Below are positions 19,737-20,262 of a stretch of DNA of 33,804 nucleotides, piece after piece. The stretch comes from Escherichia phage 899. Numbering within the stretch: position 1 is the first letter of the stretch; the number at the start of each line of letters is the position of its first letter. The translations under genes were made by a program, and so were the position numbers. The stretch lies in the sequence record PV533660.1; one strand, 5' to 3'. The notes under the pieces were generated by a model that was not told the origin of the DNA, made no database searches, and saw only the letters and a list, made by a program, of their open reading frames with translations.

Positions 19737-20038
19737 TGTCCTGTTCTCGTTCAGTTGTTTTACTGAACAATGCCTTAAAAATCGCCGTTATGAAAAATGG
19801 CGATTTGTCTCTTATTCAACTTGGTCTTGATAAAGAAAAACGCGAAATAACTGAATCTGTTATCGCGATTTATCAGAGTGAATTAAACCTCCTGTCTGAT
19901 GTGGTCAATTTACTTGTTAAACGCGCTGTATTTCACAAGCAAATTTCCTCCGTGGATGAACTGACGAAATTAACGACAGAAATCGCCAGCTATTGCGCTG
20001 ATGAATTTAAAAAACTGAACGACAAAAGGAACTGGTAA
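19736..20038 (+). CDS. Hypothetical early protein
   Basis: 100-aa ORF from ATG 19736 overlapping the upstream stop (TGATG). Confidence 0.5.
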   Translation: MSCSRSVVLLNNALKIAVMKNGDLSLIQLGLDKEKREITESVIAIYQSELNLLSDVVNLLVKRAVFHKQISSVDELTKLTTEIASYCADEFKKLNDKRNW

Positions 20039-20262
20039 TGCCGGACAACGTAGATTTTATTCAGGAACAACAGGCTGAATTACTGGAGCGCCAGATTAAC
20101 GCGGCAAGGGTAAAACATTGCGGTGCTTCTGCGCTGGTTTGCGAAGAGTGTGACGCGCCAATACCTGCTGCCCGTCGTGCGGCTTATCCGTCAGCCACGC
20201 GTTGTGTTTCCTGTCAGTCAGTCTTTGAAGCAAAAAACAAACATTACCGGAGAACGGCATGA
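20038..20262 (+). CDS. TraR/DksA-like C4 zinc-finger protein
   Basis: 74-aa ORF with CEEC...(17 residues)...CVSC spacing typical of phage TraR/DksA-like proteins; TAATG overlap with upstream gene. Confidence 0.6.
   Translation: MPDNVDFIQEQQAELLERQINAARVKHCGASALVCEECDAPIPAARRAAYPSATRCVSCQSVFEAKNKHYRRTA

What the first reader, a model, noticed from the sequence alone, without database searches (positions are those of the whole stretch)
20038..20262. TraR/DksA-like zinc-finger protein in the early operon
The 74-aa protein has a CxxC-N17-CxxC motif typical of TraR/DksA-family proteins, which can bind the RNA polymerase secondary channel. It lies between B and A in the early operon and may modulate host transcription during infection.
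Basis: partly seen in the sequence, partly recalled or inferred. Interest (0 to 1): 0.2.

Follow-up and report, generated by a model that had tools for sequence, protein, structure and literature searches.

The report
P2 Orf82, a known TraR-family regulator

Summary
The ORF at 20038-20262 (+) is real. It encodes 74 aa with C35xxC38-N17-C56xxC59. The window is the whole genome of Yersinia phage GMG73, a P2-like Peduovirus, and the protein is 74/74 identical to P2 Orf82 (one synonymous DNA difference).

It passes the curated cut-offs of Pfam PF01258 (zf-dskA_traR) and NCBIfam TIGR02419 (phage/conjugal-plasmid TraR family). Its closest solved relatives, by sequence and by predicted fold, are F-plasmid TraR bound to RNA polymerase. 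The four cysteines, D3, D6 and R46/R47 are near-invariant in 111 diverse relatives.

It lies in the Pe early operon in the order cox-orf78-B-orf80-orf81-orf82-orf83-A, with start and stop codons overlapping both neighbours.

Gopalkrishnan et al. (mBio 2022, PMC9239242) purified P2 Orf82. It competes with DksA for E. coli RNA polymerase, inhibits rrnB P1 (IC50 250 nM) without ppGpp, activates thrABC and argI 2-4 fold, and complements a dksA null strain. Its activity is lower than TraR's, which they tentatively link to I8 replacing A8 of the DxxDxA motif.

Verdict: observation confirmed, interpretation supported, already known. The only open point is its role during an actual P2-type infection. 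The gene occurs in about 30% of complete E. coli genomes. Interest is low.

The parts
20038..20262 (+). orf82 coding sequence (74 aa plus stop): TraR-family C4 zinc-finger RNA polymerase-binding protein, identical to P2 Orf82
20044..20061 (+). Codons 3-8, D-N-V-D-F-I: the N-terminal DxxDxA-type tip motif, with D3 and D6 present and I8 in place of A8
   Evidence: Sequence. Conservation is D3 100/111, D6 102/111; position 8 is A73/V19/I6/S5. PMC9239242 notes the missing A8 in Orf82.
20140..20214 (+). Codons 35-59: CxxC-N17-CxxC zinc-binding region, including the I42-P43 and R46-R47 equivalents of TraR R48/R49
   Evidence: PF01258 match covers residues 34-64. Conservation is C35 111/111, C38 111/111, C56 110/111, C59 108/111, R46 110/111, R47 99/111.
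20206..20256 (+). Codons 57-73: predicted C-terminal helix, the counterpart of the TraR helix that contacts the beta-lobe Si1 insertion
   Evidence: AF2 model has a helix at 57-73. It aligns with TraR residues up to 71-73. The structural role comes from PMC9239242.
20026..20030 (+). AAGGA Shine-Dalgarno sequence, 7 nt upstream of the orf82 ATG, inside the 3' end of orf81
   Evidence: Read directly from the sequence.
18354..18382 (+). Pe early promoter-like site (TTGACA-17-TATATT), which would drive cox-orf78-B-orf80-orf81-orf82-orf83-A
   Evidence: Consensus scan scores 11/12. The position corresponds to the annotated Pe of P2.
19470..19495 (+). Putative rho-independent terminator between B and orf80, upstream of orf82. 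It would attenuate transcription reaching orf80-A.
   Evidence: Terminator-like hit. The sequence is identical to the annotated 'putative rho-independent terminator' of P2.
19512..19736 (+). orf80 homologue (DUF2732), in the same operon. In other Peduoviridae genera it lies immediately upstream of the TraR-like gene.
   Evidence: PF10809 E 5.7e-10. Coordinates mapped from P2. Synteny.
19736..20038 (+). orf81 homologue (DUF5405). Its stop overlaps the orf82 start.
   Evidence: PF17399 E 9.1e-35. P2 annotation.
20259..20534 (+). orf83 homologue (DUF5405 paralogue of orf81). Its start overlaps the orf82 stop.
   Evidence: PF17399 E 5.9e-14. P2 annotation.

Best explanation
The gene is the GMG73 copy of phage P2 orf82. 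It encodes a 74-aa TraR-family protein: a DksA homologue that lacks one arm of the coiled coil.

Expression (inferred): it is transcribed from the Pe early promoter after infection or derepression. It is translationally coupled to its DUF5405 neighbours, orf81 and orf83.

Structure (inferred): four cysteines (C35, C38, C56, C59) hold one zinc ion in a small globular domain between an N-terminal and a C-terminal helix.

Binding (shown for the identical protein; residue contacts inferred from TraR): the protein binds host RNA polymerase at the DksA/TraR site. By homology with the TraR-RNAP structures, the N-terminal helix (D3, D6) reaches down the secondary channel towards the active site, R46/R47 contact the rim helices and the beta' Si3 insertion, and the C-terminal helix contacts the beta Si1 insertion.

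[quoted passage not shown] Promoters with short-lived open complexes (rRNA, ribosomal protein) are inhibited, and some amino-acid biosynthesis promoters are activated.

Outcome (inferred from lambda Orf73): a stringent-response-like reprogramming of the host during the lytic cycle frees RNA polymerase and resources for the phage.

In short, RNAP binding, rrnB P1 inhibition, thrABC/argI activation and dksA complementation are shown. Zinc binding, the residue-level contacts, expression in GMG73 and any benefit to the phage are inferred.
For: Identity: 74/74 to P2 Orf82, with one synonymous nucleotide difference. The whole early operon is about 97% identical to P2-like phages.

Family: PF01258 and TIGR02419 score above their curated cut-offs, and phrog_54 'DksA-like zinc-finger protein' matches. 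The best PDB sequence hits are TraR in RNAP complexes, 5w1s_M (E 8.9e-10) and 6n57_M, followed by YbiI and DksA.

Fold: the AF2 model (pLDDT 75) has helix 3-24, a zinc region and helix 57-73. Its top Foldseek hits are 6n57_M (prob 1.00) and 5w1s_M.

Conservation: C35, C38, C56, C59, D3, D6, I42, P43, R46, R47 and E64 are near-invariant in 111 full-length relatives, drawn from the 150 best of 665 representative hits.

Experiments on P2 Orf82 (PMC9239242): it competes with DksA for RNAP at 0.65-1 uM. It inhibits rrnB P1 with IC50 250 nM without ppGpp. It activates thrABC and argI about 2-4 fold. It complements a dksA deletion when induced. Overexpression was reported to stop cell growth (their ref. 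50: Liu, Saha and Haggard-Ljungquist 1993).

Context: the Pe-like promoter, SD sequence and overlapping stop/start codons are all present. The position upstream of gene A is conserved in three Peduoviridae genera.
Against: The DxxDxA motif is incomplete (I8 instead of A8). Orf82 is about 5-fold less potent than TraR on rrnB P1 although it binds RNAP as well.

It complements the dksA deletion only when induced.

No orf82 mutant phenotype in a P2-type infection was found in the papers read, so the benefit to the phage is an analogy with lambda Orf73.

A putative terminator lies between B and orf80, so natural expression may be low.

All assays used E. coli RNA polymerase. GMG73 was isolated on Yersinia pestis, and its polymerase was not tested.

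dN/dS among close relatives is only moderately below 1 (about 0.2-0.6) and rests on 1-10 differences per pair, so it is weak evidence.
Confidence: 0.9

Rival explanations
1. Orf82 binds RNA polymerase, but its natural targets are phage processes rather than the host. For example, it could tune P2 early or late promoters, or act on transcription-coupled steps of A-dependent rolling-circle replication. Host rRNA inhibition would then be a side effect.
For: The gene always sits among replication genes, just upstream of gene A, in Peduovirus, Eganvirus and Gegavirus. F-plasmid TraR activates F promoters needed for conjugation (section heading). PMC9239242 leaves open that some homologues regulate promoters of their own phages.
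Against: [quoted passage not shown] No P2 promoter has been tested with Orf82. The demonstrated activities are all on host promoters.
Confidence: 0.07
2. Orf82 acts only as part of a complex with a neighbouring small protein: Orf80 (DUF2732), or Orf81/Orf83 (DUF5405). This would parallel VP882 TraR, which works with the upstream-encoded QisA to arrest host growth. On this view the weak stand-alone activity is not the physiological one.
For: VP882 TraR and QisA, encoded by the gene immediately upstream, form a complex that arrests growth much more strongly than TraR alone (bioRxiv 10.64898/2026.07.27.740977). In PSP3, Klebsiella phage ST15-OXA48phi14.1 and EtG, a DUF2732 gene ends exactly where the TraR-like gene starts. 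In this window orf82 overlaps both DUF5405 neighbours. Orf82 is less active than TraR despite equal binding.
Against: QisA has no BLASTP or Pfam relative among the early-operon proteins of this window or of PSP3. Orf82 alone is active in vitro and complements the dksA deletion. Overlapping genes are common in phage operons and do not by themselves imply a complex.
Confidence: 0.03
3. The ORF is a chance reading frame, or a decayed non-functional remnant.
For: None beyond its small size. Some database entries are truncated or frameshifted.
Against: The profile matches exceed the curated cut-offs. Functional residues are conserved across 111 diverse relatives. The identical protein is active when purified. 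The frameshifted entries are single-member or small clusters that match the +1 frame, so they look like sequencing or assembly errors.
Confidence: 0

Closest known systems
Bacteriophage P2 Orf82 (AAD03304.1, AF063097.1 27548-27772)
   Same: The protein is identical (74/74), with one synonymous nucleotide change. It has the same position (orf81-orf82-orf83-A), the same overlapping start and stop codons, and the same Pe operon with the putative terminator after B.
   Different: Nothing differs in the gene itself. The host of isolation is Yersinia pestis rather than E. coli, and the phage carries different cargo downstream of A.
F-plasmid TraR (PDB 5W1S chain M; 6N57/6N58 chain M)
   Same: Same family (TIGR02419, PF01258) and similar size (74 aa against 72-79-residue PDB chains). 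It has the same three-part architecture, the same C4 motif, the acidic D3/D6 tip and the RR pair. Like TraR, it acts on RNA polymerase without ppGpp.
   Different: Foldseek reports 34-38% identity. It scores below the F TraR equivalog cut-off (NF010268, 43.2 bits against 108). It has I8 instead of A8, an IC50 on rrnB P1 of about 250 nM against about 50 nM, and is encoded by a phage early operon rather than a conjugative transfer operon.
Phage lambda Orf73
   Same: A phage-encoded TraR homologue expressed early. It binds RNA polymerase at the DksA site and inhibits rRNA and r-protein promoters.
   Different: Orf73 is as potent as TraR but shows little or no activation of thrABC and argI, whereas Orf82 activates them 2-4 fold. 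Orf73 has in vivo evidence (slower host growth, larger burst); Orf82 does not. The genomic context also differs: the exo-xis region (abstract of PMC8614690) against the replication operon.
Vibrio phage VP882 TraR (gp61/Orf61) with its partner QisA
   Same: A TraR-family protein in a repressor-controlled early operon, 36% identical to Orf82 over 70 residues, with RNAP-dependent growth suppression.
   Different: VP882 TraR works with the upstream-encoded QisA and is countered by QtiQ. No QisA relative was detected in this window.
E. coli DksA and YbiI
   Same: They share the C4 zinc-finger region and the fold of the C-terminal half. DksA shares the binding site on RNA polymerase.
   Different: DksA is 151 aa with a full coiled coil and needs ppGpp for full activity. 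Orf82 scores far below the DksA and YbiI equivalog cut-offs: TIGR02420 gives 20 bits against 115.5, and NF008243 gives 47.1 against 96.

Membership tests
TraR family (phage/conjugal-plasmid C4 zinc-finger proteins; TIGR02419, Pfam PF01258) | Profile score above the curated cut-off | tested here: met
   TIGR02419 scores 78.3 bits against a cut-off of 59.7, covering residues 3-64 of the protein and positions 1-64 of 64 in the model. PF01258 scores 43.6 bits against 24.9.
TraR family (phage/conjugal-plasmid C4 zinc-finger proteins; TIGR02419, Pfam PF01258) | Four zinc-ligand cysteines arranged CxxC-N17-CxxC | tested here: met
   C35, C38, C56 and C59 are present. They are conserved in 111, 111, 110 and 108 of 111 relatives. 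Zinc binding itself was not measured.
TraR family (phage/conjugal-plasmid C4 zinc-finger proteins; TIGR02419, Pfam PF01258) | Short length (about 70-75 aa) with N-terminal helix, globular zinc domain and C-terminal helix | tested here: met
   The protein is 74 aa. The AF2 model has helices 3-24 and 57-73 flanking the zinc region (pLDDT 75). The top Foldseek hit is TraR 6n57_M at prob 1.00 and TM 0.50. The high rmsd reflects a different helix packing in the free model.
TraR family (phage/conjugal-plasmid C4 zinc-finger proteins; TIGR02419, Pfam PF01258) | The two N-terminal aspartates of DxxDxA (TraR D3, D6), required for function | tested here: met
   D3 and D6 are present and conserved in 100 and 102 of 111 relatives.
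TraR family (phage/conjugal-plasmid C4 zinc-finger proteins; TIGR02419, Pfam PF01258) | Alanine at position 8 of DxxDxA | tested here: not met
   Orf82 has I8. Among 111 relatives the position is A in 73, V in 19, I in 6 and S in 5. PMC9239242 notes this and links it tentatively to the lower activity. This position varies within the family, so it does not exclude membership.
TraR family (phage/conjugal-plasmid C4 zinc-finger proteins; TIGR02419, Pfam PF01258) | Arg-Arg pair equivalent to TraR R48/R49 (contacts with the rim helices and beta' Si3) | tested here: met
   R46-R47 align with TraR's ARR and are conserved in 110 and 99 of 111 relatives. Their role is described in PMC9239242.
TraR family (phage/conjugal-plasmid C4 zinc-finger proteins; TIGR02419, Pfam PF01258) | Binds the RNA polymerase secondary channel and regulates initiation without ppGpp | not testable with these tools
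   Published for the identical protein, P2 Orf82: DksA competition at 0.65-1 uM, rrnB P1 IC50 of 250 nM, and 2-4 fold activation of thrABC and argI (PMC9239242).
F-plasmid TraR orthologue (NCBIfam NF010268 equivalog) | Equivalog score above the cut-off | tested here: not met
   43.2 bits against a cut-off of 108. It is a homologue, not an orthologue, of the conjugative-plasmid TraR.
DksA proper (TIGR02420 / NF033459) | Equivalog score above the cut-off, and a full-length coiled coil (about 151 aa) | tested here: not met
   TIGR02420 scores 20 bits against 115.5, and NF033459 scores 27.7 against 105. The protein is 74 aa, and only the C-terminal zinc-finger part aligns.
YbiI (NF008243 equivalog) | Equivalog score above the cut-off | tested here: not met
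   47.1 bits against a cut-off of 96.

The most novel reading that the evidence does not exclude
Orf82 may not act alone in Peduoviridae. It could work as a complex with one of the small proteins that are always co-encoded and translationally coupled with it: the DUF2732 protein Orf80, or the DUF5405 proteins Orf81 and Orf83. This would be analogous to, but evolutionarily independent of, the QisA-TraR pair of phage VP882. Its unusual I8 tip and its position among replication genes could then reflect a role linking host transcription shut-down to the start of P2 rolling-circle replication.
Probability: 0.05. Interest if true: 0.45.

Novelty: already known. Interest (0 to 1): 0.08.

Why it matters
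It matters little as a discovery. The protein sequence, its family, its genomic position and its biochemical activity are all published, and NCBI's annotation pipeline already names the gene correctly in about 1600 complete E. coli genomes. The result is useful in two small ways. The public GMG73 record carries no annotation, and at least one related record (phage S164) leaves this gene uncalled. It also leaves one open, testable question: what Orf82 contributes to a real P2-type infection, including in Yersinia pestis.

Tried and rejected
1. Chance ORF: rejected, because the profile scores exceed the curated cut-offs and the functional residues are conserved.

2. C28 as a fifth zinc ligand or alternative motif: rejected. 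The position is T, A, G or S in most relatives and Y in a close one.

3. Overlapping ORFs (20096-20260 on the minus strand; 20123-20275 in the +1 frame): no support. The one database protein resembling the +1 frame (P0096) is a chimera of the Orf82 N-terminus and that frame, that is, a frameshift error.

4. Membership of DksA, YbiI or F TraR as an orthologue: rejected, because the scores fall below the equivalog cut-offs.

5. Anti-phage defence component: no PADLOC hit.

6. Structured RNA in the region: no Rfam match at gathering threshold anywhere in the window.

7. QisA-like partner: VP882 gp60 has no BLASTP or Pfam relative among the cox, orf78, B, orf80, orf81, orf83 and A products, or among the PSP3 neighbours.

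8. dN/dS: among close relatives it is about 0.2-0.6, based on only 1-10 differences per pair. Against the relatives of about 50% identity (PSP3, Klebsiella phage, EtG), dS is saturated. Neither is informative on its own.

9. The viral-contig scan gave at least 583 loci, but the 80 returned were all 99-100% identical, so it added abundance and no diversity.

10. The Christie and Calendar 2016 P2 review (PMC4836473) is not held in the library.

Full report
**1. What is there**

The window matches Yersinia phage GMG73 (OP880301.3, 33,804 bp) at 100% over the 4.5 kb tested and has the same length as that record. It is therefore the whole genome of a P2-like Peduovirus, and that public record carries no annotation.

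The ORF at 20038-20262 on the + strand starts with ATG and encodes 74 aa: MPDNVDFIQEQQAELLERQINAARVKHCGASALVCEECDAPIPAARRAAYPSATRCVSCQSVFEAKNKHYRRTA. Cysteines lie at 28, 35, 38, 56 and 59.

The translation signals are good:
- An AAGGA Shine-Dalgarno sequence (20026-20030) lies 7 nt upstream of the ATG.
- The ATG overlaps the TAA stop of the upstream gene (TAATG).
- The TGA stop overlaps the ATG of the downstream gene (ATGA).

**2. Family assignment**

- Pfam PF01258 (zf-dskA_traR): 43.6 bits against a gathering score of 24.9.
- NCBIfam TIGR02419 (phage/conjugal plasmid C4 zinc-finger protein, TraR family): 78.3 bits against 59.7, covering the whole model.
- PHROG 54 (DksA-like zinc-finger protein): E 1.5e-32.
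- The equivalog models for F-plasmid TraR, YbiI and DksA all score far below their cut-offs. The protein is a family member, not an orthologue of any of those three.

By sequence, the closest solved structures are TraR bound to E. coli RNA polymerase (5w1s_M at E 8.9e-10, and 6n57_M), then YbiI (2kgo), then DksA proteins.

An AlphaFold2 model built on 13 sequences has mean pLDDT 75. It shows helix 3-24, a non-helical zinc region and helix 57-73. Its best Foldseek matches in the PDB are again TraR 6n57_M (E 4e-4, probability 1.00, TM 0.50) and 5w1s_M, followed by YbiI and DksA. The large rmsd shows that the helices pack differently in the free model and in RNAP-bound TraR. I read the match as agreement in architecture only.

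**3. Conservation**

An exhaustive phmmer search of 1.84 billion cluster representatives found 665 relatives at E <= 1e-3. I aligned the 109 of the 150 best that are 60-82 aa long, together with Orf82 and F TraR. Counts out of 111 sequences:

| Position in Orf82 | Conserved in |
|---|---|
| C35 | 111 |
| C38 | 111 |
| C56 | 110 |
| C59 | 108 |
| D3 | 100 |
| D6 | 102 |
| I42 | 107 |
| P43 | 97 |
| R46 | 110 |
| R47 | 99 |
| Q60 | 96 |
| E64 | 105 |

C28 is not conserved, so it is not a ligand.

**4. Comparison with P2**

tblastn against annotated phage genomes shows the protein is 100% identical to Orf82 of bacteriophage P2 (AF063097.1 27548-27772, AAD03304.1) and of many P2-like phages. The DNA differs from P2 by one synonymous change, at codon Y50.

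The P2 annotation gives the operon as Pe - cox - orf78 - B - (putative rho-independent terminator) - orf80 - orf81 - orf82 - orf83 - A. All of these are present in the window:
- A Pe-like promoter, TTGACA-17-TATATT, at 18354-18382, and the terminator-like hairpin at 19470-19485 followed by a T run.
- Cox (PF10743), Orf80 (DUF2732), Orf81 and Orf83 (both DUF5405), and gpA (PF05840).

So 'between B and A in the early operon' is correct, with two genes between B and orf82 and one between orf82 and A.

In more distant Peduoviridae, a gene about 50% identical sits directly after the DUF2732 gene and upstream of the A homologue. This holds for PSP3 (Eganvirus), Klebsiella phage ST15-OXA48phi14.1 (Gegavirus) and Erwinia phage EtG.

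The gene is very common. It is present in 1603 of 5426 complete E. coli genomes, where the PGAP pipeline already calls it 'TraR/DksA C4-type zinc finger protein'. It also occurs in at least 583 IMG/VR loci.

**5. How it works**

This does not need to be inferred from homology alone. Gopalkrishnan, Ross et al. (mBio 2022, PMC9239242) chose P2 Orf82 as one of five TraR homologues and purified it. Their findings for Orf82:
- When induced, it complements a dksA deletion for growth on minimal medium.
- It competes with labelled DksA for E. coli RNA polymerase as well as TraR does (half-maximal at 0.65-1 uM). This places it at the same secondary-channel site.
- It inhibits rrnB P1 with an IC50 of 250 nM, without ppGpp (TraR and lambda Orf73: about 50 nM). 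None of the factors tested inhibited the RNA-1 control promoter.
- Like the other homologues except lambda Orf73, it activates thrABC and argI about 2-4 fold.

The authors note that Orf82 lacks A8 of the DxxDxA motif and suggest this may explain its lower activity. They also cite Liu, Saha and Haggard-Ljungquist (1993) for the observation that overexpressed Orf82 stops cell growth.

From the TraR-RNAP structures as summarised in that paper, three contacts are expected. The N-terminal helix reaches the active-site region. The zinc domain with R48/R49 (Orf82 R46/R47) contacts the rim helices and beta' Si3. The C-terminal helix contacts beta Si1.

The protein in this window is identical to the one tested, so these results transfer directly. 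The following remain inferred:
- zinc binding;
- the residue-level contacts;
- expression in GMG73;
- activity on Yersinia RNA polymerase;
- the benefit to the phage, which is argued by analogy with lambda Orf73 (slower host growth, larger burst).

**6. Rivals**

(a) Phage targets rather than host targets. This is possible given the constant position among replication genes, but it is untested, and lambda Orf73 had no effect on the lambda promoters tested.

(b) A partner protein. A July 2026 preprint shows that VP882 TraR forms a growth-arresting complex with QisA, the product of the gene just upstream. In Peduoviridae the TraR-like gene is always translationally coupled to small proteins of unknown function (DUF2732, DUF5405). 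However, QisA has no detectable relative here, and Orf82 is active alone. This is speculation, at about 3-5%.

(c) A chance or decayed ORF. This is excluded.

**7. Verdict**

Novelty: already known. Interest: low (0.08). The only open question is the in vivo role of Orf82 in a P2-type infection.

**8. Seen in passing**

The two variable cargo positions of P2-like genomes carry genes absent from P2.

Downstream of A:
- An Rv2179c-like 3'-5' exoribonuclease (22979-23530).
- A 547-aa protein (23540-25183) that combines a HipA-like kinase region, a Couple_hipA domain and a HIRAN domain. It matches both the A and B components of the PADLOC candidate defence system PDC-M03 within a single polypeptide.

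Between the tail-fibre genes and FI:
- A 461-aa protein with no Pfam or PADLOC match.
- A 348-aa protein with a weak DUF3800 match.

These were not followed up.

Noticed in passing
window 23540-25183 (+): A 547-aa protein sits just downstream of replication gene A, in the region where P2 has orf91 and tin. It has an N-terminal HipA-like kinase region, a Couple_hipA domain and a C-terminal HIRAN domain. It matches both components of the PADLOC candidate defence system PDC-M03 in one polypeptide: PDC-M03A at E 3.8e-31 (residues 4-308) and PDC-M03B at E 1e-30 (residues 325-525). It looks like a fused single-gene variant of that system.
   Followed up: partly
window 22979-23530 (+): A 183-aa Rv2179c-like 3'-5' exoribonuclease (PF16473, E 6.8e-57), with a weak DEDDh PADLOC hit. 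It lies immediately upstream of the HipA/HIRAN gene and may form a two-gene cargo module with it.
   Followed up: partly
window 6942-8327 (+) and 8607-9653 (+): Two cargo ORFs lie between the tail-fibre genes and the tail sheath gene; from memory this is the P2 Z/fun position, which I did not check. The 461-aa protein has no Pfam or PADLOC match. The 348-aa protein has only a weak DUF3800 match (E 1.4e-5). They could be an uncharacterised defence or lysogenic-conversion module.
   Followed up: partly
window 19736-20038 and 20259-20534 (+): orf82 is flanked on both sides by paralogous DUF5405 genes, orf81 and orf83. PHROGs label both 'replication initiation protein' (phrog_265, phrog_154). In EtG only the copy next to gene A is present, so orf81 looks like an extra copy in P2-type phages.
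   Followed up: partly
L002 2268-2725; L003 2268-2728; L004 2274-2722: In three other Peduoviridae genera-level lineages, a DUF2732 gene (the orf80 homologue) ends exactly where the TraR-like gene starts. This is a conserved, translationally coupled gene pair of unknown meaning.
   Followed up: partly
window 19470-19495 (+): The putative rho-independent terminator between B and orf80 is sequence-identical to the one annotated in P2. It would lower transcription of orf80-orf83 and A relative to cox and B.
   Followed up: no
L006 301-525 (Escherichia phage S164, ON239131.1); OP880301.3: The orf82 homologue is left unannotated in the S164 record, where there is a gap between the two DUF5405 genes. 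The GMG73 record itself carries no annotation at all.
   Followed up: no
window 20123-20275 (+1 frame); proteins P0096 and P0014: Some database 'homologues' look like sequencing or assembly errors rather than real variants. P0096 joins the Orf82 N-terminus to the +1-frame ORF, and P0014 has scattered substitutions that include zinc-ligand positions.
   Followed up: yes
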